From a virus, in the UHGV virus genome UHGV-0213490: DNA of 25,438 nucleotides. One strand, 5' to 3'. Of the stretch, positions 1 to 24,613 are shown one piece after another (position 1 is the stretch's first letter; every line of letters starts with the position of its first letter). Made by a program: the position numbers and the translations under genes. The notes under the pieces are model-generated. The model worked only from the letters and a program-made list of their open reading frames with translations. It had not been told where the DNA came from and made no database searches.

Positions 1-1020
1 CTACTTACTGACCACAAGCGGCAAATCCAGTGTTGGGGTGATTTTGGTTTTACGATCGTAAATCAACACCTGATTTTCTGTTTTGTGTCCACTGAAAATT
101 TGTTTGTCGCGACTGCTGCCTTCGTAATCTGAAATCCCTTTGGCTTTTATGTCATGGAAGTTGCACCCAAACGGAACGCCGGCTTTTTGCTCGGCTGCAC
201 GTTTAGCCTGATTCCACCAGTTGTTCAGCGTCTTGGCTATTACCTTCCCACCTTTGGTTGTGTTGATCACATACTCGCATGTGCCGGAAGATACATTTCG
301 GGCTAACTGGATCGCCGTACGTAATCGCGGAGACCATTCCTTGATTTGTTTTGTGCCGGTCTTGTTTTGCTCAATGTAAATCCCTTTATCCATAATATCC
401 TGCCATTTCAGCTCGAGTACATCACCGAGCCTTGCCGCACAAAGATAGGATATCTCCATTGCAATACGTAACTGTGGAATTGCTTCTGCATATATTGCAG
501 CATACTGTTCATCGGTGATGTAAACAGTACGGGCTTTAAGTGTGAATTTTCTGACTCCTTTGCATGGATTATTTTTCACATACCCACGCTCATATCCCCA
601 TCCGTATACACGGCTCAGACTTGCCAGTTCATGGTTTGCCTGGGTCTTGCTCTCAAGTCCTCGCTTATCCATGAAAATTCTTACCTGTTCAATTTTTACA
701 TTATCAGCAAGCACTTTTCCGAATACTGCCAACAATGCCCTTTGATGTTGCCGATAATCTTTTTGGGTTCGGGGGGCCAGTTCTGTAAATGTAGGGGAGT
801 CCATAAACATGTGCCATAATTTAGCTACTGTCATTATGTTGTGGAGTTTTGCTTTTTCCAGCTCATAATTTTGCCAGACTTTAGCTACGCTGGTTTCCCG
901 CACTCTTCCGAGCCCTATAGTTCTTGTGCTTCCTTCGGGTTTCCATACGTAACTGTAACCATTCGATCTAACACGCGGTGGTAGAGCATTATCTTTTTTG
1001 TTTTTTCTTGGTCTTCCCAT
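1..1020 (-). CDS. int: Phage tyrosine integrase (lambda Int family)
   Basis: 339-aa ORF at the prophage end; C-terminal HKTENQVLIYDRK resembles the lambda Int catalytic Tyr region; overlaps the xis-like ORF upstream as in int-xis modules. Confidence 0.9.
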   Translation of the reverse strand: MGRPRKNKKDNALPPRVRSNGYSYVWKPEGSTRTIGLGRVRETSVAKVWQNYELEKAKLHNIMTVAKLWHMFMDSPTFTELAPRTQKDYRQHQRALLAVFGKVLADNVKIEQVRIFMDKRGLESKTQANHELASLSRVYGWGYERGYVKNNPCKGVRKFTLKARTVYITDEQYAAIYAEAIPQLRIAMEISYLCAARLGDVLELKWQDIMDKGIYIEQNKTGTKQIKEWSPRLRTAIQLARNVSSGTCEYVINTTKGGKVIAKTLNNWWNQAKRAAEQKAGVPFGCNFHDIKAKGISDYEGSSRDKQIFSGHKTENQVLIYDRKTKITPTLDLPLVVSK

Positions 1021-3642: not shown

Positions 3643-3900
3643 TTACGGTGCTGTTTTAAGTCCTGCCGGGACTTCGTTATTATCCATGCGAATAACTTTA
3701 TCGACCGGATAACAGTTACCGGGAATTTTCTGTTCCGCTGCGGCAGCCATGCATTCTTTCATTGAGCTGTATACGCCAGTAACCGTGTCAACCGGTTCGC
3801 CGGAAACAAGAAAAACCGTCAGAACAAGTGCAAATGTGGTATTCATTGCCAGTATCCTTTTTGCATCAGACGTAAACGGGCCAGCATTGAAACAATGCAT
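3643..3900 (-). CDS. Small secreted/membrane-anchored hypothetical protein (start may be the internal Met at 3846)
   Basis: ORF with signal-peptide-like stretch MNTTFALVLTVFLVSG; part of the leftward early operon. Confidence 0.45.
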   Translation of the reverse strand: MHCFNAGPFTSDAKRILAMNTTFALVLTVFLVSGEPVDTVTGVYSSMKECMAAAAEQKIPGNCYPVDKVIRMDNNEVPAGLKTAP

Positions 3901-4190
3901 ATTTGATTTAATAACTCCCGTTCGTGTTTTCTCTTATTAATGGCATCTTCAGTAAATGCAGGGTTACTGATACTGACACCAATTTCAAAACAACCTTCAG
4001 ACGTATTAACGTTTGGTAATAACGTTTCCATTATCGCGTCCTCAACAATGAATTTTGTGATACGGTGCCTGGTGCCTCCAGGTGACGTTAACCAGTTAAC
4101 AATTAACGCCGGATACAGGGAAACCGACCCATGAAACAAATACGGAGTATCGATCACTTTTTTAACTGTTCCGCGTGCGCTTAGCCGCAT
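3843..4190 (-). CDS. Hypothetical early protein
   Basis: 115-aa ORF in the leftward operon; overlaps the neighbouring ORF so the true start is uncertain. Confidence 0.35.
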   Translation of the reverse strand: MRLSARGTVKKVIDTPYLFHGSVSLYPALIVNWLTSPGGTRHRITKFIVEDAIMETLLPNVNTSEGCFEIGVSISNPAFTEDAINKRKHERELLNQICIVSMLARLRLMQKGYWQ

Positions 4191-4422
4191 TCACCGCATC
4201 ACAAAATTCACTTTAAAAAGGGCGGACATCAGCCAGCAATGAAACTGATGCCGCCAAAGGTGCCAATCAACATGAAGTGTTGTAGCGGGGTTGTCACTTA
4301 AGCGTATGGTCAACCTGACAACCCGGTGCACTAATGGGGTAAGGATAACCCCGCCATACTTACCGCCGTACGCTTTCGCGTTATGCCCTGACTTTTCAGG
4401 GATATATCCTTTCAGTAAACTG

Positions 4423-10387: not shown

Positions 10388-11199
10388 CCACTTTTACCAA
10401 TAGCAAACTAACAGACGAATACGTTTCAAATGCAACGTTGATTCGGCTCATTCTGTGGGCTGACCAGCACAATAGCCATTATGTTGTAGCGGCTCTGCGC
10501 GAGCTACAGGAGCGCCGCAAGGCTGATAGTGTGCCTGTAGAAATCAACGACGACATGGCTTACGCATTTCACCATGCGCTTTCTGACTCATCGCTTGGCT
10601 CTGATGAAATCGAAGAAATTAAAACCGGGTTGCGTGCTGCCTTTGCCAATGTCACCGTCCAGCCGGTGCTGATAGTGCCAGATGAAATCGAGCCAGACGA
10701 TAGCAATACGTTTGATTATGTTGATGGCTGGAACGCCTGCCGCGCCGCCATGCTTCAGAGTAACCAACCTGTAAGCCAAACTTACAACTTGCCAGAATTA
10801 ATCGAGGGCATGGAAGTTTCCATTGATGTAAGCACTTGTGATGCTGATTTAGGTAATCGCTATTTCGGCACCGTCACCGAGGCGTTAGAACTTGATACTG
10901 CCAAGAATGGCTACATCCTCCTGATTCAGGACGCAGAGCCAAACTTCGATGTAAATGGCAACTCTCCGGTAACTCCGGATGGTTGGATAAGCTGTAGTGA
11001 GCGAATGCCGGAAAAGGGCCAGAACGTGCTTATTTCGGTGAATTTCGATAGCTCTCTGGTTGAACCGCTAATATGCTCCGCACGCTATACCGGAAGCACC
11101 TTTCGGCGCGGAGATGCAACGATTAAGCCGGGTAATGGTATTGAGCAAGCAACTCACTGGATGCCGCTACCGGAACCACCGCAGGAGGTGAATCAATGA
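10384..11199 (+). CDS. DUF551 domain-containing phage protein
   Basis: 271-aa ORF coupled to the HNH gene (ATGA overlap); C-terminal WISCSERMPEKGQNVLISV is typical of DUF551. Confidence 0.65.
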   Translation: MTTFTNSKLTDEYVSNATLIRLILWADQHNSHYVVAALRELQERRKADSVPVEINDDMAYAFHHALSDSSLGSDEIEEIKTGLRAAFANVTVQPVLIVPDEIEPDDSNTFDYVDGWNACRAAMLQSNQPVSQTYNLPELIEGMEVSIDVSTCDADLGNRYFGTVTEALELDTAKNGYILLIQDAEPNFDVNGNSPVTPDGWISCSERMPEKGQNVLISVNFDSSLVEPLICSARYTGSTFRRGDATIKPGNGIEQATHWMPLPEPPQEVNQ

Positions 11200-11279
11200 C
11201 CTGGCCTGAGGCATTTACCACGGTAGGAATTGCGATGGCAGTGGCGATGGTGGTGTATTCGATTTGCCGTTGGGGATAA
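11196..11279 (+). CDS. 27-codon hydrophobic micro-ORF
   Basis: ATG overlaps the DUF551 stop; strong AGGAGG 7 nt upstream; encodes MTWPEAFTTVGIAMAVAMVVYSICRWG (single TM helix); followed by a terminator. Confidence 0.45.
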   Translation: MTWPEAFTTVGIAMAVAMVVYSICRWG

Positions 11280-11289
11280 CAAACAAAAA

Positions 11290-11316
11290 CCCCGGATTGA
11301 TGGTCCGGGGTTTTTG
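11290..11316 (+). terminator. Rho-independent terminator
   Basis: CCCCGGA-ttgatgg-TCCGGGG followed by TTTTT. Confidence 0.75.
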
Positions 11317-11653
11317 AAGGAAACAAAACAGAAACAGCAATTGCCGTTACCTGTTGTTATCATGGCAAGTAAACGTATCTCAGGCGAGCGCATTGCGCCG
11401 TTCTGACGCAGATAAACTAGCCTGGATAGATGGTGCTGGCAATAAAAAATAGCGTTTTCTTATCGGTGTCGGTAAGATTGCTGCGGGTGCTTGAGGCTGT
11501 CTGCCTCGGGCATGCCACTGTAAGGCAGACAGAGAAAAGCCCCAGTTAACATTACGCGTCCTGCAAGACGCTTAACATTAATCTGAGGCCCAATCTATGT
11601 CTCACAAATGTAGGTTAGCCTCTTACGTGCCGAAAGGCAAGGAGAAGCAGGCT

Positions 11654-11809
11654 ATGAAGCAGCAAAAGGCGATGTTAATCGCCCTGATCGTCATCTGTTT
11701 AACCGTCATAGTGACGGCACTGGTAACGAGGAAAGACCTCTGCGAGGTACGAATCCGAACCGGCCAGACGGAGGTTGCTGTCTTCGTGGACTACGAATCT
11801 GAGAAGTAA
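11654..11809 (+). CDS. hok: Hok/Gef-family type I toxin
   Basis: MKQQKAMLIALIVICLTVIVTALVTRKDLCEVRIRTGQTEVAVFVDYESEK: single TM plus conserved CE..R.G..EVA motif; AGGAGA RBS; in-frame upstream ATG at 11597 gives a mok-like extension. Confidence 0.85.
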   Translation: MKQQKAMLIALIVICLTVIVTALVTRKDLCEVRIRTGQTEVAVFVDYESEK

Positions 11810-11881
11810 GAGTGACTAGGCGGGAGAGTAATCTCCCGCCACCTCTGATGTGTCAGGCATCCTCAACGCACCCGCACTTAA

Positions 11882-11902
11882 CCCGCTTCGGCGGGTTTTT
11901 TC
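11882..11902 (+). terminator. Rho-independent terminator of the hok transcript
   Basis: CCCGC-ttcg-GCGGG plus TTTTTT; preceded by a GGCGGGAGAGTAATCTCCCGCC hairpin (11819-11840). Confidence 0.75.
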
Positions 11903-12021: not shown

Positions 12022-12201
12022 ATGAGCTACGCACTAAAAAAACACCCGCGATTGACTATTCCCCCTCGCGATAAAAGCGTTGTGGCAGCTCCGCGCCCGG
12101 CTATTGATGAAAATTGCACACATCGTGAGCAGGTGAAAAATGCTTTCGATTTCGGTTTTTCTCGTTACGAGAAGGCAATGGAAGAACTTTCAAAAGTGTA
12201 A
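12022..12201 (+). CDS. Candidate antitoxin/partner of the Fic/Doc toxin
   Basis: 59-aa ORF (MSYALKKHPRLTIPPRDKSVV...EKAMEELSKV) ending 10-19 nt before the Doc-like gene; below the ORF-track length cutoff; not recognisably Phd/YefM. Confidence 0.5.
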   Translation: MSYALKKHPRLTIPPRDKSVVAAPRPAIDENCTHREQVKNAFDFGFSRYEKAMEELSKV

Positions 12202-12210
12202 TAATGGGTA

Positions 12211-12705
12211 TTGTGCTCTATGGCTGAGATTGTTGAAGGAGTGCACTATCTTTCGGTTGATGATCTTACTGAAATCAATCGCCTTTTAATTGAGCTTCAA
12301 ACACCAGATGAACCTGTAGGTGTGCTGAGTGTTGATAATTTAAGTTCTTCTCAGGCCCGTCCCAGCATGGTTCGATGGTATGAACAGATCAATGACATGT
12401 TTGTACTGGCATCGGTATTGATTGAAAGTCTGATTCAGAATCATCCGTTTGCTAATGCGAACAAACGAACAGCTATGATGGCTGGTTACGTCTTCTTGTT
12501 GTTGAATGGCTATGAGTTAACAGCACCAGGCGATGAAATCGTGGAAATGGCAGAGGGACTGGCCTGCAAAACCTATACTCGAGAAGATCTCGAGAACTGG
12601 TTGTGTTATTGGTCTCGTGCGTATGACAGCCGGGAATTATGTAAAACAGGCGCAACTATTGTTTTGTATGAAACTATCAAGCTTAAAATAGAACAGCAAA
12701 ACTAA
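12211..12705 (+). CDS. doc: Fic/Doc-family toxin (death-on-curing-like)
   Basis: Doc-type Fic motif HPFANANKRTA; alternative ATG at 12220. Confidence 0.8.
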   Translation: MCSMAEIVEGVHYLSVDDLTEINRLLIELQTPDEPVGVLSVDNLSSSQARPSMVRWYEQINDMFVLASVLIESLIQNHPFANANKRTAMMAGYVFLLLNGYELTAPGDEIVEMAEGLACKTYTREDLENWLCYWSRAYDSRELCKTGATIVLYETIKLKIEQQN

Positions 12706-14154: not shown

Positions 14155-14526
14155 ATGTGTATAGAGTTTGTTTTGCCTTACCCGCCGACGGTGAATACTT
14201 ACTGGCGACGTCGTGGCAGCACATATTTTGTATCAAAAGCCGGTGAGCGTTATCGCCGTGATGTGGCACTTATTGTTCGCCAGCAGCAACTGAAATTAAA
14301 CCTGTCCGGAAGGCTGGCGATAACGGTTATTGCCGAGCCGCCGGATAAGCGTCGTCGTGATCTGGACAATATCCTGAAAGCACCACTGGATGCGCTGACG
14401 CATGCGGGACTGCTTATCGACGACGAGCAGTTTGATGAAATTAATATTGTGCGCGGTCAGCTCGTTCCTGGTGGTCGGCTGGGCGTGAAGATTTGCGAAA
14501 TTAGAGGTGATAGTAATGGGGCGTGA
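14155..14526 (+). CDS. rusA: Holliday-junction resolvase RusA
   Basis: LPYPPTVNTYW...DKRRRDLDNILKAPLDALTHAGLLIDDEQ matches the RusA family signature; AAGGGGG RBS. Confidence 0.85.
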   Translation: MCIEFVLPYPPTVNTYWRRRGSTYFVSKAGERYRRDVALIVRQQQLKLNLSGRLAITVIAEPPDKRRRDLDNILKAPLDALTHAGLLIDDEQFDEINIVRGQLVPGGRLGVKICEIRGDSNGA

Positions 14527-14866
14527 TATGTATGAGGTTTTAGACCGCTGGGGGGCATGGGCTGCAGCAGAAAATAGTGGTGTCGATTGGCAACCGATAG
14601 CAGCGGGCTTCAAGGGGCTTTTACCACGCGGTAAAAAGTCACGTCTCCAGTGTGATGATGATGAGGGGCTCATGATCGATGGGTGCGTAGCTAGATTAAG
14701 AAAGTACAAACCAGAAGAGTATGAGTTAGTTATAGCCCATTTTGTGGTAGGGATTTCATTGCGAGCCATTGCTAAGAAGAGAAAGTGTTCGGATGGGACT
14801 ATCAGGAAAGAGTTGCAAACATCGCTTGGTTTCATTGAAGGCATTGTTTGCACTCTTGCCTGTTAA
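14516..14866 (+). CDS. Q: Late-gene antiterminator Q (QuuD/Q82-like)
   Basis: MGRDMYEVLDRWGAWAA...IAAGFKG...CDDDEG...C resembles E. coli QuuD-type Q proteins; GAGGTGA RBS; follows rusA as in lambdoid nin-Q order. Confidence 0.8.
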   Translation: MGRDMYEVLDRWGAWAAAENSGVDWQPIAAGFKGLLPRGKKSRLQCDDDEGLMIDGCVARLRKYKPEEYELVIAHFVVGISLRAIAKKRKCSDGTIRKELQTSLGFIEGIVCTLAC

Positions 14867-14887: not shown

Positions 14888-15772
14888 TTATATTGGGCGC
14901 TTTGAATTCGATTTAAAGCGTCTTCCACTTATTCCAGAAACCCAAATGTCTTCCTCAAGAAAGTCAAGAAGGGCTTTTATTTCTTTTTTTGATGAAGGCA
15001 TGACAATTTTCTCAACGCCGCCAACTATTATGGTTTGTAAGGGGAATTTAACTTTAGCAGCTTCGGATTTAAACTTTGACATATTTGGGGGTGTTAGCAT
15101 CCCAGTCTGATTTATTAGTGTTACTTTATTTCTTATCACTGTATCTGCAACGGATTTTAGATCAAAACCTTGGGGAGTAGAAAATACACTAAGTTGACTA
15201 AATGCATTAAGTTCTTGGTCAGTAGCAGCAGAAAAATAGGACGACATGTCAAAAATGCTTCTTAGATTAAAGAAACTCTTAAATCGTATTGTATCATTGA
15301 TAATTATTGCAACTAGTTTATCATCAACATTAAAACCGATGCTATTAGCTTTACTAAAGGTAGTTTTGCTTGCAAAAAGCTTTCCAAAGAATGATTTTGA
15401 GGTATCTAAGATTTGTTTTTTGTTGAAAGTTTGTAGTGCAATAATATTGGGGTTTGCTGGCGCGTCAACACCAACAAATAATGCTTTAATATAACCAATA
15501 TCAATTTGGCTAGGATCCCAGATAGGCACGGCGGTAGGCCTATTGACTGCGTCAATCAGGCGTGCAGAATCAGTAAAGTTTTGTATTTCAAAACACTCAC
15601 TATGTTTTGGTGTATAACCGGCATAGAATGGTATCATATTGTTATGATGACTTTCAAAATATTGACGCTGTTGTTGGAAAATGGCCGTAACAGAAGTACT
15701 TGCTGTTGCATCAAGTTCGACTCTAACAATTCTCGTTGCAATTGTATTATCTATTACTGCAAAAAGTGCCAT
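14888..15772 (-). CDS. Unknown 294-aa soluble protein, gene 2 of AT-rich cassette (candidate defence effector)
   Basis: Long ORF in strongly AT-rich DNA on the opposite strand to the flanking phage genes; AAGGAT RBS; 5-nt gap from the upstream membrane gene; no motif I recognise. Confidence 0.7.
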   Translation of the reverse strand: MALFAVIDNTIATRIVRVELDATASTSVTAIFQQQRQYFESHHNNMIPFYAGYTPKHSECFEIQNFTDSARLIDAVNRPTAVPIWDPSQIDIGYIKALFVGVDAPANPNIIALQTFNKKQILDTSKSFFGKLFASKTTFSKANSIGFNVDDKLVAIIINDTIRFKSFFNLRSIFDMSSYFSAATDQELNAFSQLSVFSTPQGFDLKSVADTVIRNKVTLINQTGMLTPPNMSKFKSEAAKVKFPLQTIIVGGVEKIVMPSSKKEIKALLDFLEEDIWVSGISGRRFKSNSKRPI

Positions 15773-15777
15773 GGTTA

Positions 15778-16299
15778 TTATCCTTTAACATGTAGAAATG
15801 TGTAGTCTGTTAATTGAATAACTGTAAATTTGATATCTTTAATATCAGTAATGACTGATTTAGAAATCAATACAAAACCTACGCCGGTGTCATCTTCAGC
15901 TTCGTAAAATTTATAACCGATAAGTGACAATACTGGGTTAAAGTTATAGTTCTCGGAAAAGCTGATGTAAAATAACAATGACAAATAAAAGAATAACGCA
16001 TATGCTTTATTTTCAGCAATAGAATCTGTTCCTAGGAGAGGGAATAAATAGCTTAAGAAATAATTAGTTACTTCTTTGTTAGCTGGAGAAACTGAACTAA
16101 TATTTTTTGTCAGAGGTTCAAGTTGTTTCTCAGCATATTGAATCAGGCCTATTGCTAATAACCAACTTGCTATGCCAACGCATAAGCTATATTGCATCAG
16201 CCAAACCGTATCTTTTACATATCCAATAAAAAATAGAGTTGCGCAAACAGGTGCAATTGAGCTGGCCGTTAATAATAAGCGTGCTAATTTGTTCATCAT
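15778..16299 (-). CDS. Unknown 173-aa polytopic membrane protein, gene 1 of AT-rich cassette
   Basis: Three to four hydrophobic helices (LLLTASSIAPVCATLFFIGY, WLMQYSLCVGIASWLLAIGLIQY, YFLSYLFPLLG, AYALFFYLSLLFYISF) plus about 55-aa C-terminal tail; AAGGA RBS. Confidence 0.7.
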   Translation of the reverse strand: MMNKLARLLLTASSIAPVCATLFFIGYVKDTVWLMQYSLCVGIASWLLAIGLIQYAEKQLEPLTKNISSVSPANKEVTNYFLSYLFPLLGTDSIAENKAYALFFYLSLLFYISFSENYNFNPVLSLIGYKFYEAEDDTGVGFVLISKSVITDIKDIKFTVIQLTDYTFLHVKG

Positions 16300-16954: not shown

Positions 16955-18001
16955 ATGGCTAATACTGTAAAAATATCCAGTTGTGAGTCAATCAACGCTG
17001 ATTGCCTGGAATTTATCCAGACCTTACCGGAAAACTCTGTCGATCTGATAGTCACAGACCCGCCATACTTTAAAGTGAAGCCCGAGGGCTGGGATAACCA
17101 GTGGAAGGGCGACGATGATTACCTGAAATGGCTGGACCAGTGTCTGGCGCAATTCTGGCGGGTACTGAAGCCTGCCGGAAGTCTTTACCTGTTCTGTGGT
17201 CATCGCCTGGCATCTGATATCGAAATCATGATGCGTGAACGCTTTAATGTGCTGAACCACATTATCTGGGCGAAGCCGTCCGGGCGCTGGAACGGATGCA
17301 ACAAGGAAAGCCTGCGGACGTATTTCCCGGCAACAGAACGCATTCTGTTTGCAGAACATTATCAGGGGCCATACCAGCCCAAAAATGACGGCTATGCGGC
17401 AAAGGGGCGCGAGCTAAAACAGCACGTCATGGCCCCGCTGATTTCTTACTTTCGTGATGCGCGTGAATCACTGGGAATAACGTCAAAACAGATAGCGGAA
17501 GCCACCGGAAAGAAAAACATGGCTTCGCACTGGTTTGGTATCAGTCAGTGGCAGTTGCCGAACGAAGGCGATTATCTGAAATTACAGGCGTTGTTTGCGC
17601 GTGTTGCAGCAGAAAAACATCAGCGCGGTGAACTGGAAAAGCCACACCACCAGCTGGTCAGCACATACAGTGAACTGAACCGGCAATATGCCAGTCTGCT
17701 GGATGAGTACAAATCCCTGCGGCGTTATTTTTCCGTATCGGCTGCCGTTCCGTATACGGATGTCTGGACGCACAAGCCTGTGCAGTATTACCCCGGCAAA
17801 CATCCCTGTGAGAAACCGGCGGATATGTTGCGTCAGATAATTACCGCCAGCAGCCATCCGGGAGATTTGGTCGCTGATTTTTTTATGGGGTCGGGGTCAA
17901 CAATAAAAGCAGCATTATCGCTGGGAAGGCGTGCAATAGGTGTGGAACTGGAAGAAGAGAGATTTAACCAGACTGTAATTGAAATAAAAAATAATCGTTA
18001 A
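16955..18001 (+). CDS. Orphan DNA methyltransferase (beta-class N6-adenine/N4-cytosine)
   Basis: Motif IV DPPY (IVTDPPYF) precedes motif I FxGxG (DFFMGSGST); no adjacent restriction endonuclease. Confidence 0.85.
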   Translation: MANTVKISSCESINADCLEFIQTLPENSVDLIVTDPPYFKVKPEGWDNQWKGDDDYLKWLDQCLAQFWRVLKPAGSLYLFCGHRLASDIEIMMRERFNVLNHIIWAKPSGRWNGCNKESLRTYFPATERILFAEHYQGPYQPKNDGYAAKGRELKQHVMAPLISYFRDARESLGITSKQIAEATGKKNMASHWFGISQWQLPNEGDYLKLQALFARVAAEKHQRGELEKPHHQLVSTYSELNRQYASLLDEYKSLRRYFSVSAAVPYTDVWTHKPVQYYPGKHPCEKPADMLRQIITASSHPGDLVADFFMGSGSTIKAALSLGRRAIGVELEEERFNQTVIEIKNNR

Positions 18002-18170: not shown

Positions 18171-18246
<76 letters not shown>

Positions 18247-18249
18247 TAT

Positions 18250-18324
<75 letters not shown>

Positions 18325-18884: not shown

Positions 18885-19274
18885 ATGTCTGAACCCTTAT
18901 CCGGTTCCGGCACGGCTGCGGCGCTCGGTGGGGCGACGGTATTCGGGCTGTTTACCGGAACGGATTTCGGGATTGTATTTGGTGCGTTCGCTGGTGCGTT
19001 GTTTGTGGCAACAATGCCGCAGACACTTTCAGCCTGGCGTGTGGCTGCACATTTTCTGGTGTCCTTTATTGTTGGTGTGCTTGGGGCGGATGTGATGGCG
19101 TCTTACCTGGTTGAAAAACTGAATCTCCACAGCACATCTCTCGACGCGCTTTGCGCGGTACTGGTATCGGTGGTGTCGGTGAAGATTCTCTCATTCATCC
19201 ACCAGCAGGATATCGCATCGCTGTTATCCGGGCTGTTCTCCCGTCTGCGGGGTGGAGGCGGTAATGTTAAGTAA
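18885..19274 (+). CDS. Putative holin (multi-TM membrane protein)
   Basis: 129-aa ORF with GGAGAAAAAAG RBS; Gly/Ala-rich TM helices; first gene of the lysis cassette. Confidence 0.55.
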   Translation: MSEPLSGSGTAAALGGATVFGLFTGTDFGIVFGAFAGALFVATMPQTLSAWRVAAHFLVSFIVGVLGADVMASYLVEKLNLHSTSLDALCAVLVSVVSVKILSFIHQQDIASLLSGLFSRLRGGGGNVK

Positions 19275-19292: not shown

Positions 19293-19541
19293 GTGGTGTT
19301 AAGCACGGTTATCGTGCTGACGCTCTTTTTTTATCGTCGTGGTGAGTCGAGACATAAACCGCTGATGTCGTGGCTGGCCTGGCTGCTGATGCTGCTTTAT
19401 GCCTTTGCGCCGCTTTGTTATCTGTGTGGTCGCTTTCCACCCGGTAACTGGCTGGTCGTCCTGATTAACCTAGTGTTCTGCGTGCTGGTGATACGAGCAC
19501 GCGGGAACGTATCAAGAATCCTTGTATTACGAAGGCGCTGA
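19293..19541 (+). CDS. Small membrane protein in lysis cassette (possible holin/antiholin partner)
   Basis: GTG start at 19293 or ATG at 19365; two hydrophobic helices; ends 1 nt before the endolysin ATG. Confidence 0.4.
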   Translation: MVLSTVIVLTLFFYRRGESRHKPLMSWLAWLLMLLYAFAPLCYLCGRFPPGNWLVVLINLVFCVLVIRARGNVSRILVLRRR

Positions 19542-19542
19542 T

Positions 19543-20088
19543 ATGAAGTCGAAAGATGAAATTTTTGACGAAATTCTGGGAAAAGAGGGCGGTTACGTCA
19601 ATCACCCGGATGATAAAGGTGGTCCGACTAAATGGGGCATCACTGAAAAAGTTGCCCGTGCACACGGTTATCAGGGCGATATGCGTGACCTGACGCGTGG
19701 GCAGGCGCTGGAAATACTCGAGGCGGACTACTGGTACGGACCACGATTCGACCAGGTTGAGGACCTGTCTCCTGATATTGCCGCAGAGTTGTGCGATACG
19801 GGCGTGAACATGGGGCCAACTGTGGCGTCCAGAATGCTTCAGCGCTGGCTGAACGTTTTCAACCTGCGCGGGAAACTCTATCCGGATATGGATGCTGATG
19901 GACGCATCGGGCCGCGTACTCTTAATGCATTACGGGCATATCTGAAAAATCGCAGCAGGGATGGTGAACTGGTACTGGTGAAAGCCCTGAACTGTACGCA
20001 GGGCGAGCGTTATCTGGAGCTGGCAGAGAAACGCGAGGCCAATGAGTCGTTTGTCTATGGCTGGCTGAAAGAGCGCGTGGTGGTTTAA
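19543..20088 (+). CDS. Endolysin, GH108-type muramidase with peptidoglycan-binding domain
   Basis: MKSKDEIFDEILGKEGGYVNHPDDKGGPTKWGIT is the typical GH108 N-terminus; C-terminal PG-binding-like region; alternative upstream ATG at 19522. Confidence 0.8.
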   Translation: MKSKDEIFDEILGKEGGYVNHPDDKGGPTKWGITEKVARAHGYQGDMRDLTRGQALEILEADYWYGPRFDQVEDLSPDIAAELCDTGVNMGPTVASRMLQRWLNVFNLRGKLYPDMDADGRIGPRTLNALRAYLKNRSRDGELVLVKALNCTQGERYLELAEKREANESFVYGWLKERVVV

Positions 20089-22501: not shown

Positions 22502-23524
22502 TGCTGTCGCTCAATATATGCGGGTATTCTTGCGAAATCGACCGTTGCTGCCGTTATCGAATACCTCGGTTTACAGGAAACGGTAAATCAGGCTTCTGGC
22601 GCATTACAGAAAAACCAGAACGGCGCAGATATTCCAGGAAAAGATACCTTCACCAAAAATATTGGTGCCTGCCGCGCATATAGCGCATGGCTGAATATTG
22701 GTGGCGATAGTCAGGTCTGGACAACCGCGCAATTTATTTCGTGGCTGGAGAGTCAGGGAGCATTTAACCATCCTTACTGGATGTGCAAAGGCTCATGGGC
22801 TTATGCAAACAATAAGGTCATTACAGATACAGGTTGCGGAAATATTTGTCTTGCAGGTGCTGTGGTGGAAGTTATTGGCACTCGCGGCGCAATGACCATA
22901 CGCGTTACCACGCCGAGTACGTCCAGCGGCGGCGGAATCACTAACGCTCAATTCACTTATATTAATCATGGTGATGCTTACGCTCCTGGCTGGCGACGAG
23001 ACTACAACACGAAAAACCAGCAGCCTGCATTTGCTTTAGGGCAAACAGGAAGCACTGTCGGAAATGATAAAGCTGTTGGCTGGAACTGGAATAGCGGGGT
23101 CTATAACGCAAATATTGGTGGCGCATCGACATTAATCCTCCATTTCAATATGAATGCGGGGAGTTGCCCTGCTGTACAGTTCCGCGTGAATTATAAGAAC
23201 GGCGGTATTTTTTATCGTTCAGCGCGTGATGCTTATGGATTTGAGACTGACTGGTCAGAATTCTACACCACAACACGTAAGCCATCAGCGGGAGATGTTG
23301 GTGCATATACGCGGGCAGAATGTAACTCAAGGTTTATTACAGGTATTCGCCTTGGCGGTCTGTTATCTGTTAAGACATGGCATGGTTCTGGCTGGTCTGA
23401 CAGGTCAGGTTATGTCGTTACGGGTTCAGTTAACGAAAACCGTGATGAATTAATTGATACAATTCAGGCAAGGCCAATTCAGTATTGCATTAATGGGGTG
23501 TGGTATAACGCGGGGAGTATTTAA
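22502..23524 (+). pseudogene. Side tail fibre protein, 3' fragment (N-terminal part missing)
   Basis: Open frame with no start before the in-frame TGA at 22499-22501; GALQKNQNGADIPGKD resembles the conserved RLQKDQNGADIPDKG motif of lambda-type Stf; followed by tfa. Confidence 0.6.
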
Positions 23525-23526
23525 CG

Positions 23527-24069
23527 ATGATGCACTTAAAAAACATTACTGCTGGAAACCCTAAAACAAAAGAGCAATACCAGCTAACGAAACAATTTAA
23601 CATCAAATGGCTTTATACAGAGGATGGGAAAAACTGGTATGAGGAACAAAAGAACTTTCAGCCTGATACGTTGAAAATGGTCTATGACCACAACGGCGTT
23701 ATTATTTGTATTGAAAAGGATGTTTCAGCAATTAATCCGGAAGGCGCAAGCGTCGTTGAATTACCTGATATTACAGCAAATCGCCGGGCTGATATTTCGG
23801 GTAAATGGATGTTTAAGGATGGCGTGGTAATTAACCGGGAATGCACTTATGAAGAACTGGTGCAGCAGGCAAAAAATAAAAAGAGCTTATTAATGCGACA
23901 GGCCGATGATTGCATGGCACCCCTTCGGGATGCTGTGGATTTGGATATGGCGACAGAGGGGGAAAAGGAACAGTTACTGACCTGGAAGAAATATCGGGTG
24001 TTACTAAACCGTGTTGATACATCGACCGCGCCGGATATTGAATGGCCGGAAGAACCAGACACAATGTAA
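23527..24069 (+). CDS. tfa: Tail fibre assembly protein
   Basis: [48 protein letters not shown]...[16 protein letters not shown] is a typical Tfa sequence. Confidence 0.85.
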
Positions 24070-24525: not shown

Positions 24526-24613
24526 TGGCGGAAGCGCAGAGATTCGAACTCTGGAACCCTTTCGGGTCGCCGGTTTTCAAGACCGGTGCCTTCAACCGCT
24601 CGGCCACACTTCC
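24526..24613 (-). tRNA. serT: tRNA-Ser(UGA), host serT
   Basis: Reverse complement reads GGAAGTGTGGCCGAGCGGTTGAAGGCACCGGTCTTGAAAACCGG...GAGTTCGAATCTCTGCGCTTCCGCCA: long variable arm, anticodon UGA, 88 nt. Confidence 0.9.

What the first reader, a model, noticed from the sequence alone, without database searches (positions are those of the whole stretch)
11480..11902. Complete hok/sok-type type I toxin locus inside the prophage
A Hok/Gef toxin ORF has an in-frame upstream ATG (mok-like leader). A 10-bp-stem 5' hairpin (CTGTCTGCCT...AGGCAGACAG, 11491-11530) and a 3' hairpin plus terminator match the folded architecture of hok mRNAs. An antisense Sok-like RNA is expected on the minus strand across the leader (about 11560-11640) but cannot be placed exactly by eye.
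Basis: partly seen in the sequence, partly recalled or inferred. Interest (0 to 1): 0.55.

Follow-up and report, generated by a model that had tools for sequence, protein, structure and literature searches.

The report
Intact hok/mok/sok toxin-antitoxin locus
This is a complete, ordinary copy of the well-known hok/sok "host-killing" toxin-antitoxin module, with a toxin identical to the experimentally studied HokW of Shiga-toxin phages, sitting in a defective lambda-like prophage of E. coli.

Summary
The observation and the interpretation both hold. Window 11473-11901 carries a full hok/mok/sok type I toxin-antitoxin locus.

- **Family matches:** Rfam RF01794 scores 118 bits (cut-off 59). Pfam HOK_GEF scores 81 bits.
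- **Toxin:** The 51-aa toxin is 51/51 identical to HokW of phages 933W and Sp5, which has been shown to be toxic and to be neutralised by sokW RNA (PMC8621323).
- **mok:** An in-frame mok leader ORF starts at 11597.
- **Sok gene (minus strand):** -35 TTGCCT at 11640-11635 and -10 TAACCT at 11617-11612, both identical to sokW. The 5' end is at 11605, where the annotated 5' ends of sokW and K-12 sokC both map. The 3' end is at about 11535-11529.
- **mRNA fold:** The full-length mRNA (11485-~11901) folds with z = -6.3. Its 5' tac element pairs with a 3' fbi element. Compensatory changes across 28 loci from several enterobacterial genera support this pairing and the 5' metastable hairpin.
- **Activation switch:** The translatable "open" fold costs +13 kcal/mol in the full-length RNA and about 0-3 kcal/mol after 3' truncation, as in plasmid R1.

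The exact proteins are already present on hundreds of E. coli contigs. This is already known and of low interest.

The parts
11473..11478 (+). hok promoter -10 (TAAGAT); no recognisable conserved -35
   Evidence: A TAnnnT-like hexamer sits at the same distance (-12 to -7) upstream of the conserved GGG 5' end in nearly all of the 27 related loci, while the sequence further upstream diverges. It is below the threshold of the promoter scan. The promoter assignment is an inference.
11485..11901 (+). full-length hok mRNA (~414-417 nt), from the conserved GGG 5' end to the terminator T-run
   Evidence: Position 1 of the Rfam RF01794 model aligns to 11485. Conservation among relatives begins exactly there. 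MFE is -170.7 kcal/mol, z = -6.3. On 28 loci, 84% of cells are paired against 38-45% for slid partners, and 41 pairs change on both sides.
11485..11492 (+). tac element (GGGUGCUU), the 5' end that pairs in turn with the metastable partner, with fbi and with ucb
   Evidence: It pairs with fbi in the MFE fold. Position 4 (U/C) covaries with its fbi partner (UA 15, CG 10) and with its metastable partner (UA 15, CG 11). tac/ucb pairing holds in 99.5% of cells. Element names follow PMC9841398.
11487..11513 (+). metastable 5' hairpin of the nascent transcript (tac 11487-11497 paired with 11503-11513)
   Evidence: It is the MFE of the isolated leader. On 28 loci, 95.8% of cells are paired against 28-56% for slid partners, and 4 pairs change on both sides.
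   Evidence: It appears in the folds. Column 15-48 shows AU 17, UA 6, GC 2.
11537..11543 (+). ucb / anti-SD (AAGCCCC); sequesters the mok SD in the closed fold and pairs with tac in the open fold
   Evidence: In the full-length MFE, 11539-11543 pairs with 11585-11589. It is invariant in 28 loci. It matches the Rfam consensus tac stem.
11529..11605 (-). Sok-like antisense RNA gene (71-77 nt): a 5' single-stranded tail of about 14 nt, a long hairpin, then CUUUU(CUCU)
   Evidence: The annotated 5' ends of 933W sokW and K-12 sokC both map to 11605. Their 3' ends map to 11535 and 11529. The fold is -33 kcal/mol, z = -5.8. It carries a 16-nt (versus the Rfam consensus) to ~18-20-nt (versus the hokC/Photorhabdus-type loci) apical insertion. 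Expression was not tested here.
11612..11640 (-). Sok promoter: -35 TTGCCT (11640-11635), 17-nt spacer, -10 TAACCT (11617-11612)
   Evidence: It is identical to 933W/Sp5 from -35 through -10; the only difference is at 11607, position -2. In Sp5, mutating the sokW -10 abolished protection (PMC8621323). The -35 region is nearly invariant in 28 loci. It is below the threshold of the consensus scan.
11585..11622 (+). mok SD (GAGG, 11585-11588) / dcb (GCCUC, 11618-11622) hairpin, the Sok-target hairpin of the open mRNA, with apical loop CUCACAA
   Evidence: It folds alone at -13.3 kcal/mol, z = -3.2. It matches the Rfam consensus hairpin. The GAGGC/GCCUC base pairs in essentially all of the 28 loci (one G-U). 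The upper stem is variable, with some double changes.
11597..11809 (+). mok-like leader ORF (70 aa), in frame with hok
   Evidence: It is 67/70 identical to MokW. An ATG at exactly -57 nt is in frame in 19 of 28 related loci. Three loci have it at -58, out of frame, with an ORF overlapping hok. The exact 70-aa sequence occurs on 102 contigs, and the names recorded for it are all E. coli.
11654..11809 (+). hok toxin gene (51 aa), SD AAGGAG at 11639-11644
   Evidence: Pfam HOK_GEF 81.1 bits. It is 51/51 identical to HokW. The exact sequence occurs on at least 999 contigs. All four nucleotide differences from hokW are synonymous.
11819..11840 (+). 3' UTR hairpin (GGCGGGAGA/UCUCCCGCC), the probable protective 3' end of the truncated mRNA
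   Evidence: On 28 loci, 96.5% of cells are paired and 3 pairs change on both sides (helix 18). The protective role is inferred from R1 (PMC9841398).
11861..11873 (+). fbi element (CCUCAACGCACCC), pairs with the 5' tac
   Evidence: The duplex with the first 13 nt is -21.5 kcal/mol. An equivalent element lies 339-381 nt from the 5' end in 38 of 40 related loci. Covariation is shown.
11880..11901 (+). intrinsic terminator (AACCCGC-UUCG-GCGGGUU plus U-run)
   Evidence: Folds. It is shared with the Rac-type locus but not with 933W. The terminator scan missed it.

Best explanation
The locus is an intact hok/mok/sok type I toxin-antitoxin module of the chromosomal/prophage hokD-hokW-hokC subgroup. 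It lies in the nin region of a defective lambdoid prophage of E. coli.

Proposed mechanism. Steps 1-5 are inferred from the R1 and Sp5 systems. The sequence features that underlie them are shown here.

1. A weak constitutive promoter (-10 TAAGAT) makes a stable mRNA of about 415 nt.
2. While the RNA is being made, its 5' tac element is held in a metastable hairpin. In the finished RNA, tac pairs with the 3' fbi element. The anti-SD (ucb) covers the mok ribosome-binding site, so neither ribosomes nor Sok can bind.
3. Slow 3' trimming removes fbi. tac then pairs with ucb, and the mok SD/dcb hairpin forms. This exposes the mok start, and it also exposes the Sok target.
4. A short, unstable antisense RNA (Sok, 71-77 nt) is made from its own promoter on the minus strand. 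Its 5' tail pairs across the mok start codon and SD. This blocks mok translation and therefore the coupled hok translation, and the duplex is cut by RNase III.
5. When Sok supply stops, the stored mRNA is translated. Sok supply could stop through loss of the DNA, a host transcription shut-off, or prophage induction. The 51-aa Hok peptide then inserts into the inner membrane and kills or lyses the cell.
For: - **Family matches.** Rfam RF01794 scores 118.1 bits against a cut-off of 59. Pfam HOK_GEF scores 81 bits.
- **Closest characterised relative.** The DNA is 93.6% identical to the annotated mokW/hokW/sokW locus of 933W. That locus is identical to the Sp5 locus over the matched 405 bp. Hok is 51/51 identical to HokW and Mok is 67/70 identical to MokW.
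- **Published experiments.** HokW is toxic. sokW, expressed from its own promoter, protects the cell. A -10 mutant loses protection. RNase III and Hfq contribute. Both RNAs are seen on Northern blots (PMC8621323).
- **Sok placement.** The Sok 5' end and promoter map onto the annotated sokW and sokC. The Sok fold has z = -5.8.
- **Closed fold.** The full-length fold has z = -6.3 and contains tac/fbi and ucb:SD pairing.
- **Covariation.** On 28 loci (Escherichia, Kluyvera, Photorhabdus, Pantoea, Citrobacter, Erwinia, Kalamiella and others), 84% of cells are paired against about 40% for slid controls, and 41 pairs change on both sides. tac position 4 covaries with both alternative partners.
- **Switch energetics.** The open conformation costs +13.1 kcal/mol in the full-length RNA and only 0-2.8 kcal/mol in 3'-truncated RNAs.
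- **Intactness.** There is no IS element or truncation. By contrast, the loci at the hokD position (L009) and L039 have no leader match.
Against: - Nothing here measures transcripts, processing or toxicity for this exact allele.
- The hok promoter has a poor -10 (4 of 6 matches) and no recognisable -35. Neither the hok nor the Sok promoter passes the generic sigma-70 scan.
- The first 16 nt of Sok differ from SokW at 6 positions. Sok kinetics therefore cannot simply be assumed equal to those of SokW.
- Thermodynamic prediction makes the open fold only iso-energetic after truncation, not clearly preferred.
- The biological role is not determined by sequence. It could be prophage retention, abortive infection, or help with lysis.
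Confidence: 0.93

Rival explanations
1. The locus is a decayed, non-functional hok relic. This would resemble most K-12 chromosomal hok loci, which are interrupted by IS elements or lack their leader. It would be kept only as prophage cargo.
For: - Degenerate copies exist. The loci at the hokD position (L009) and L039 lack the tac motif and have no Rfam leader match.
- In the K-12-like hokC locus (L016), the best 3' partner for tac is aberrant.
- The hok -10 here (TAAGAT) is weaker than TAGAAT in 933W or TATAAT in hokC.
- The host prophage is itself defective.
Against: - Every element is present and uninterrupted: promoter -10, tac, metastable partner, ucb, mok SD and ATG, dcb, Sok promoter and hairpin, hok SD and ORF, 3' hairpin, fbi and terminator.
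- The toxin is identical to the functional HokW, and all coding differences are synonymous.
- The same leader allele recurs unchanged in other E. coli and Shigella genomes (L007, L012).
Confidence: 0.04
2. The module is the same, but its main job is that shown for hokW-sokW in Sp5. After SOS induction Sok disappears, Hok is made before holin and endolysin, and it speeds lysis and phage release. On this view it is not a prophage-retention or anti-phage device.
For: - In Sp5, deleting hokW-sokW delayed growth arrest by about 40 min and halved phage release. sokW vanished after mitomycin C in a RecA-dependent way (PMC8621323).
- The toxin here is identical.
- The window retains a holin (18885-19274) and an endolysin (19522-20088).
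Against: - Between the integrase (1-1020) and the tRNA-Ser (24526-24613), the prophage has no head or tail genes apart from a tail-fibre fragment and its assembly gene. No progeny can therefore be released.
- The locus sits in the nin region, next to a Doc toxin pair and upstream of a Kiwa defence pair. In 933W it sits at the right end of the phage.
- A role in retention or abortive infection suits a remnant prophage better. This is an inference.
Confidence: 0.2
3. The match is a chance short ORF plus chance hairpins.
For: None beyond the small size of the ORF. The consensus promoter and terminator scan found nothing on the relevant strands.
Against: - Rfam E = 1e-26 and Pfam E = 4e-23.
- 0 of 100 shuffles fold as well as the real sequence.
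- 4,722 of 5,426 complete E. coli genomes carry a match.
- Covariation is seen across several genera.
Confidence: 0.005

Closest known systems
hokW-mokW-sokW of Stx2 phages 933W and Sp5 (VT2-Sakai) (AF125520, AP000422; Takada et al. 2021, PMC8621323)
   Same: - The Hok toxin is identical (51/51), and Mok is 67/70 identical.
- The DNA is 93.6% identical over 405 bp.
- The Sok -35, spacer and -10 are identical.
- The Sok 5' end, the enlarged Sok hairpin (71 nt), and the tac, ucb, dcb and fbi sequences are the same.
   Different: - Six substitutions lie in the first 16 nt of Sok, which is also mok codons 2-4.
- There is a compensatory G-C to A-T change in the 5' hairpin.
- The upstream promoter region is unrelated beyond the -10.
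- The window has an intrinsic terminator after fbi, whereas 933W diverges there.
- The location differs: the nin region of a defective prophage here, the right end of an inducible Stx phage there.
hokD (relF)-type loci of E. coli and Shigella lambdoid prophages (e.g. L007, L012; PGAP name 'type I toxin-antitoxin system toxin HokD')
   Same: The leader, mok start and Sok region are the same allele as in L007, with the same Rfam score of 118.1 bits. The hok N-terminal 44 residues are identical.
   Different: - The C-terminus here is HokW-type (VFVDYESEK) rather than HokD-type (VFTAYEPEE). The window allele therefore looks like a mosaic of the two.
- The copy at the position of K-12 hokD (L009) has no leader or Sok at all.
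hokC (gef)-mokC-sokC of E. coli K-12 (b4412, b0018, b4413)
   Same: - mok is in frame and shares the hok stop codon.
- sokC is annotated antisense, and its 5' end maps to the same position.
- The tac sequence GGGUGCUUGAGGC is the same.
- The Rfam score is 118.3 bits, on the hok strand.
   Different: - SokC is shorter (59 nt) and lacks the apical hairpin insertion.
- The toxin is about 80% identical.
- The K-12 locus has IS186 just downstream of hokC. In the K-12-like locus L016, the best 3' partner for tac is aberrant and no normal fbi was found.
- It is chromosomal, not in a prophage.
hok/sok (parB) of plasmid R1 and IncFII plasmids, the mechanistic paradigm (reviewed in PMC9841398)
   Same: The architecture is the same: tac/fbi closure, a metastable 5' hairpin, ucb covering the mok SD, the tac/ucb and SD/dcb open form, a Sok promoter inside the mok leader, and the Rfam family (87 bits for the IncFII locus).
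   Different: - HokW, which is identical to the toxin here, shares only 44% amino-acid identity with R1 Hok (PMC8621323).
- In the R1-type sequence, mok is out of frame with hok. This rests on my reading of the alignment and on prior knowledge.
- R1 Sok is shorter than the 71-77 nt here, about 64 nt from prior knowledge.
- The carrier is a plasmid rather than a prophage.

Membership tests
hok/sok type I toxin-antitoxin family | Small (about 50 aa) Hok/Gef membrane toxin (Pfam PF01848) | tested here: met
   PF01848 scores 81.1 bits against a cut-off of 22, covering residues 6-47. The conserved LVTRKDLCEV core is shared with 27 relatives. The NCBIfam Hok subfamily model scores 53.6 bits, below its strict cut-off of 73.
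hok/sok type I toxin-antitoxin family | Conserved hok mRNA leader (Rfam RF01794, named 'sok') | tested here: met
   118.1 bits against a gathering score of 59, full model 1-157, at 11485-11659 on the + strand. Reference loci also match on the hok strand: K-12 hokC 118.3, 933W 113.5, IncFII/R1-type 87.2 bits.
hok/sok type I toxin-antitoxin family | Overlapping mok leader ORF with its own SD, starting inside the Sok-complementary region | tested here: met
   ATG at 11597, with GAGG 9 nt upstream. The ORF is 70 aa and in frame with hok. The ATG position is conserved in 22 of 28 loci, in frame (19) or shifted by one base (3). Translational coupling itself was not tested.
hok/sok type I toxin-antitoxin family | Cis-encoded antisense Sok RNA gene with its own promoter, a 5' single-stranded tail and a terminator hairpin | tested here: met
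   -35 TTGCCT, 17-nt spacer, -10 TAACCT, identical to the functional sokW promoter. The 5' end at 11605 coincides with the annotated sokW and sokC 5' ends. The fold is a hairpin plus U-run at -33 kcal/mol, z = -5.8. This is met at the sequence level only.
hok/sok type I toxin-antitoxin family | Sok RNA is actually transcribed and is unstable | not testable with these tools
   This needs Northern blot, RNA-seq and rifampicin chase. It has been shown for sokW in Sp5 (PMC8621323).
hok/sok type I toxin-antitoxin family | Long-range 5'-3' closure of the full-length mRNA (tac/fbi) | tested here: met
   It is present in the MFE and centroid folds. The duplex is -21.5 kcal/mol, and an equivalent element lies 339-381 nt downstream in 38 of 40 loci. 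There is a compensatory U-A to C-G change (15 versus 10 loci).
hok/sok type I toxin-antitoxin family | Metastable 5' hairpin that traps tac in the nascent transcript | tested here: met
   It is the MFE of the isolated leader. 95.8% of cells are paired against 28-56% for slid controls, 4 pairs change on both sides, and 0 of 500 shuffles reach the observed values.
hok/sok type I toxin-antitoxin family | Switch to the open form (tac/ucb plus mok SD/dcb) after 3' processing | tested here: inconclusive
   The pairings are possible and conserved: tac/ucb 99.5% paired but invariant, and the SD/dcb base paired in essentially all 28 loci. The predicted penalty drops from +13.1 to 0-2.8 kcal/mol on truncation. 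The invariant pairs give no covariation evidence, and the processing itself cannot be observed here.
hok/sok type I toxin-antitoxin family | Toxicity of the peptide and neutralisation by the antisense RNA | not testable with these tools
   Not tested here. The identical 51-aa peptide (HokW) arrested growth on induction and was neutralised by sokW (PMC8621323; identity). The Sok 5' tail of this allele differs from SokW at 6 positions.
hokW-sokW orthologue (933W/Sp5) | Same toxin, same antitoxin and same genomic position in a Stx-converting phage | tested here: not met
   The toxin is identical. However, the Sok recognition tail differs at 6 of 16 nt, the 3' terminator differs, and the locus lies in the nin region of a defective non-Stx prophage. 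It is a close paralogue or allele, not the same locus.

The most novel reading that the evidence does not exclude
The toxin is identical to HokW, but the Sok recognition tail and the mok start segment have diverged from it (6 of 16 nt). This segment is among the most variable parts of the leader across relatives (pairwise identity 0.47-0.58, against 0.8-1.0 for the adjacent regulatory elements). This allele could therefore be an orthogonal antitoxin-specificity variant, one that lets several prophage hok/sok copies coexist in a cell without cross-protection. Together with the adjacent Doc toxin pair and the nearby Kiwa pair, it could form an addiction/defence cassette that keeps a defective prophage in the genome.
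Probability: 0.3. Interest if true: 0.3.

Novelty: already known. Interest (0 to 1): 0.1.

Why it matters
It matters little as a discovery. The family has been understood since the 1980s-90s, the closest relative was characterised in 2021, and the exact proteins are in public databases on hundreds of contigs.

It has some practical value for annotation. RefSeq/PGAP labels only the Hok ORF in such loci and omits mok and Sok. The Rfam 'sok' hit falls on the hok-sense strand, so an automatic annotation would put the antitoxin on the wrong strand.

The locus also marks a stretch of a defective prophage that is dense in toxin-antitoxin and defence genes: hok/sok, a Doc toxin pair and Kiwa.

Tried and rejected
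1. **Generic promoter/terminator scan.** It found neither the hok promoter, the Sok promoter nor the hok terminator. The Sok -10 (TAACCT) matches only 3 of 6 consensus positions, and the terminator stem was probably over-extended into its loop. I relied instead on homology to the functional sokW promoter and on folding.

2. **Mislabelled elements.** From memory I first called GCCUCUUAC (11617-11626) 'ucb' and the 3' UTR GUAAGAG 'dcb', and I enforced a GAGGC:GCCUC 'tac-ucb' pairing. In one search I then enforced SD/dcb pairs one base out of register. Both gave misleadingly large penalties and should be ignored. The names were corrected from PMC9841398, and the calculation was redone.

3. **Covariation of the apical part of the Sok-target hairpin.** It is only weakly assessable, because MAFFT aligns this hypervariable segment poorly.

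4. **Source genome.** No complete E. coli genome covers more than 52% of the window. The prophage is a mosaic and the source strain was not identified.

5. **Other copies.** Rfam found only one sok-family match in the window.

6. **PADLOC.** It has no model for Hok or Doc, so their absence there carries no information.
Full report
**Observation**

- A 51-codon ORF (11654-11809) matches Pfam HOK_GEF at 81 bits, against a cut-off of 22.
- An ATG 57 nt upstream (11597) is in frame and gives a 70-aa mok-like ORF.
- The two 10-nt arms CTGTCTGCCT and AGGCAGACAG exist, but at 11497-11506 and 11523-11532, a few bases right of the stated 11491-11530.
- A 3' hairpin lies at 11819-11840, and a GC hairpin with a T-run lies at 11880-11901.
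- Rfam family RF01794 ('sok') matches 11485-11659 over its full length at 118.1 bits, against a gathering score of 59, with E = 1e-26.
- The full-length RNA 11485-11902 folds at -170.7 kcal/mol. Shuffles average -130 ± 6.4 kcal/mol, so z = -6.3.

**Strand of the Rfam hit**

RF01794 matches the plus strand, which is the hok-sense strand. The same holds in reference loci. In K-12 the model hits the hokC strand, while the curated sokC ncRNA is annotated on the opposite strand. In 933W and in an IncFII (R1-type) plasmid it also hits the hok strand. The model ends at the hok AUG. It therefore describes the hok mRNA leader, which contains the complement of Sok. The hit is evidence for the locus, not for the strand of the antitoxin.

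**Placing Sok**

The window aligns without difficulty to the annotated mokW/hokW/sokW locus of phage 933W (93.6% identity over 405 bp) and to K-12 mokC/hokC/sokC. The annotated 5' ends of sokW and of sokC both map to window 11605 on the minus strand. Their 3' ends map to 11535 and 11529.

Upstream on the minus strand lie TTGCCT (11640-11635), a 17-nt spacer and TAACCT (11617-11612). This stretch is identical to 933W, and the only nearby difference is at position -2.

The predicted RNA has a free 5' tail of about 14 nt, a long hairpin and CUUUU(CUCU). It folds at -33 kcal/mol with z = -5.8. Compared with SokC and the Rfam consensus, its hairpin carries an apical insertion of about 16-20 nt. That gives a length of 71-77 nt, as for SokW.

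**Link to experiments**

The 933W and Sp5 (VT2-Sakai) loci are identical over the matched 405 bp. Takada et al. (PMC8621323) reported the following for Sp5:
- HokW arrests growth when induced.
- sokW expressed from its own promoter prevents this.
- A mutant in the sokW -10 loses protection and is partly rescued in trans.
- RNase III and Hfq contribute.
- Both RNAs are detected by Northern blot.
- After mitomycin C, sokW disappears and HokW accumulates in the inner membrane.

The toxin encoded here is 51/51 identical to HokW. Mok differs at residues 2-4 only. All four nucleotide differences within hok are synonymous.

**mRNA architecture**

Element names follow the summary in PMC9841398.

*Closed form.* In the full-length fold, the 5' tac element (11485-11496) pairs with fbi (11861-11873). 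The anti-SD/ucb (11539-11543) pairs with the mok SD region (11585-11589).

*Metastable form.* The isolated leader folds so that tac pairs with the segment just downstream (11503-11513). This is the metastable hairpin described for R1.

*Open form.* With the correct register, the open form (tac/ucb plus SD/dcb) costs +13.1 kcal/mol in the full-length RNA. It costs 0.0, 0.2 and 2.8 kcal/mol in RNAs ending at 11830, 11845 and 11860. That is the expected direction for activation by 3' trimming. It does not make the open form clearly preferred, and the processing cannot be observed here.

**Comparative support**

One scan of species-representative genomes returned 47 Hok loci. Of these, 26, plus 933W and the window, were aligned from the 5' GGG to just past fbi. 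The set covers Escherichia species, Kluyvera, Photorhabdus, Pantoea, Citrobacter, Erwinia, Kalamiella and two unclassified genomes.

- **Whole full-length structure.** On the window's full-length structure, 84.2% of cells are standard pairs, against 38-45% when partners are slid by 1-3 columns. Forty-one pairs change on both sides, against 15-23 for the slid controls. The structure was derived from one of the aligned sequences, which inflates the paired fraction. It does not inflate the double changes.
- **tac position 4.** It is U in Escherichia-type loci and C in most Photorhabdus and Pantoea loci. Its fbi partner switches A to G (UA 15, CG 10), and so does its metastable partner (UA 15, CG 11). 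Position 4 is bulged in the tac/ucb stem, which is otherwise invariant.
- **fbi-like element.** It lies 339-381 nt from the 5' end in 38 of 40 loci.
- **Metastable hairpin.** It is 95.8% paired and has four pairs with double changes.
- **hok promoter.** A TAnnnT-like -10 sits at a fixed distance upstream of the conserved GGG in nearly all loci, while everything further upstream diverges. This supports a transcript start at about 11485. The -35 is not recognisable.

**mok frame**

The mok ATG lies exactly 57 nt before the hok ATG and is in frame in 19 of 28 loci. In three others a one-base insertion puts it at -58, out of frame, with a 55-68-codon ORF overlapping hok. The position of the start is conserved, not the peptide. 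This fits a leader whose translation, rather than its product, matters.

**How this allele differs from hokW-sokW**

Of the 27 differences from 933W, six fall in the first 16 nt of Sok, which is also mok codons 2-4. Two form a compensatory G-C to A-T change in the 5' hairpin. The rest are in loops, at synonymous sites or in the 3' UTR.

The leader allele is the same as in HokD-type loci of other E. coli and Shigella genomes (L007, L012), whereas the C-terminal codons are HokW-type. The locus therefore looks recombinant between the two.

Across relatives, the Sok-tail target is among the least conserved segments of the leader (0.47-0.58 pairwise identity). It lies next to the invariant mok SD and upstream of the well-conserved Sok -10/dcb segment (0.89-1.00). 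This fits its role as a specificity determinant, but that is an inference.

The window has an intrinsic terminator after fbi. The Rac-type locus shares it and 933W lacks it.

**Context**

The window is a lambdoid prophage. It carries, in order:
- integrase 1-1020 (-), exonuclease, DicB;
- a YdaS/Cro-like gene, a cII-like gene, O, Ren;
- nin-region genes, including an HNH gene and a DUF551 gene;
- the hok locus;
- a 59-aa ORF plus a Doc toxin;
- DUF968/HNH, RusA, Q;
- a Kiwa pair on the opposite strand;
- a methyltransferase, two tRNAs, holin, endolysin;
- DUF1441, a tail-fibre fragment and a tail-fibre assembly gene;
- tRNA-Ser.

Head and tail genes are absent, so the prophage is defective. 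No complete E. coli genome covers more than 52% of the window. The hok-(59 aa)-doc arrangement does recur elsewhere, for example in E. coli AH19B041, where only the Hok ORF is annotated.

Matches to the 481-bp query occur in 4,722 of 5,426 complete E. coli genomes, with a median of two places per genome, and in 79 phage records. The exact Hok sequence is on at least 999 contigs and the exact Mok sequence on 102.

**Verdict**

The locus is an intact member of a thoroughly characterised family and a near-twin of a locus studied experimentally in 2021. What remains open is not visible in sequence: which role it plays in a prophage that can no longer make particles (retention, abortive infection or lysis assistance), and whether its diverged Sok tail makes it orthogonal to co-resident copies.

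Novelty: already known. Interest: low.

Noticed in passing
window 12022-12705 (+): A 59-aa ORF (12022-12201; PHROG 2208, no Pfam hit) is followed after 9 nt by a 164-aa Doc/Fic 'death-on-curing' toxin. The toxin scores 126 bits on TIGR01550 (cut-off 38.7) and also matches Pfam Fic. This looks like a type II toxin-antitoxin pair directly downstream of the hok terminator. The same hok-59aa-doc arrangement occurs in E. coli AH19B041.
   Followed up: partly
window 14888-16299 (-): This is a Kiwa anti-phage defence pair. KwaA (15778-16299) scores 277 bits in PADLOC and KwaB (14888-15772) scores 495 bits. KwaB also matches Pfam KwaB at 30.6 bits (cut-off 26.3). The pair is inserted on the opposite strand between Q (14507-14866) and the methyltransferase (16955-18001).
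   Followed up: partly
window 4220-4269 (-) and 3843-4190 (-): A sub-threshold DicF sRNA match (37.4 bits, gathering score 48, E = 6e-5) lies immediately upstream of a DicB cell-division inhibitor gene (Pfam DicB, 127.6 bits). This is the dicF-dicB arrangement of Qin-type prophages.
   Followed up: no
window 11196-11316 (+): A 27-codon hydrophobic ORF (MTWPEAFTTVGIAMAVAMVVYSICRWG) overlaps the stop codon of the DUF551 gene (ATGA). It is followed by a GC hairpin plus T-run (11290-11316) that would insulate hok from upstream transcription. It has no family match.
   Followed up: no
window 18171-18324 (+) and 24526-24613 (-): Two prophage-borne tRNAs, Thr(tgt) and Gly(tcc), sit between the methyltransferase and the holin. 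A tRNA-Ser(tga) lies at the far end from the integrase and may mark the attachment site.
   Followed up: no
window 1-24613: The prophage is defective and mosaic. Only about 24.6 kb lie between the integrase and tRNA-Ser. There are no head or tail genes except a tail-fibre C-terminal fragment (22781-23524) and its assembly protein (23527-24069). No complete E. coli genome covers more than 52% of the window.
   Followed up: partly
Rfam RF01794 at window 11485-11659; L003 602-754: The Rfam family named 'sok antitoxin' matches the hok-sense strand in every reference locus tested, opposite to the curated sokC gene of K-12. Annotations derived from it would place the antitoxin on the wrong strand.
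   Followed up: yes
window 23850-24026 (+): There is a sub-threshold match to Rfam IS009 (61.9 bits, gathering score 117, E = 5e-12) inside the tail-fibre assembly gene.
   Followed up: no
L015, L023, L050 (genome contigs): Near-identical E. coli-type hok sequences sit on very short contigs of assemblies labelled Acinetobacter idrijaensis, Xanthomonas pisi and a chicken-gut MAG. These are probably contamination of those assemblies and not genuine distribution.
   Followed up: no
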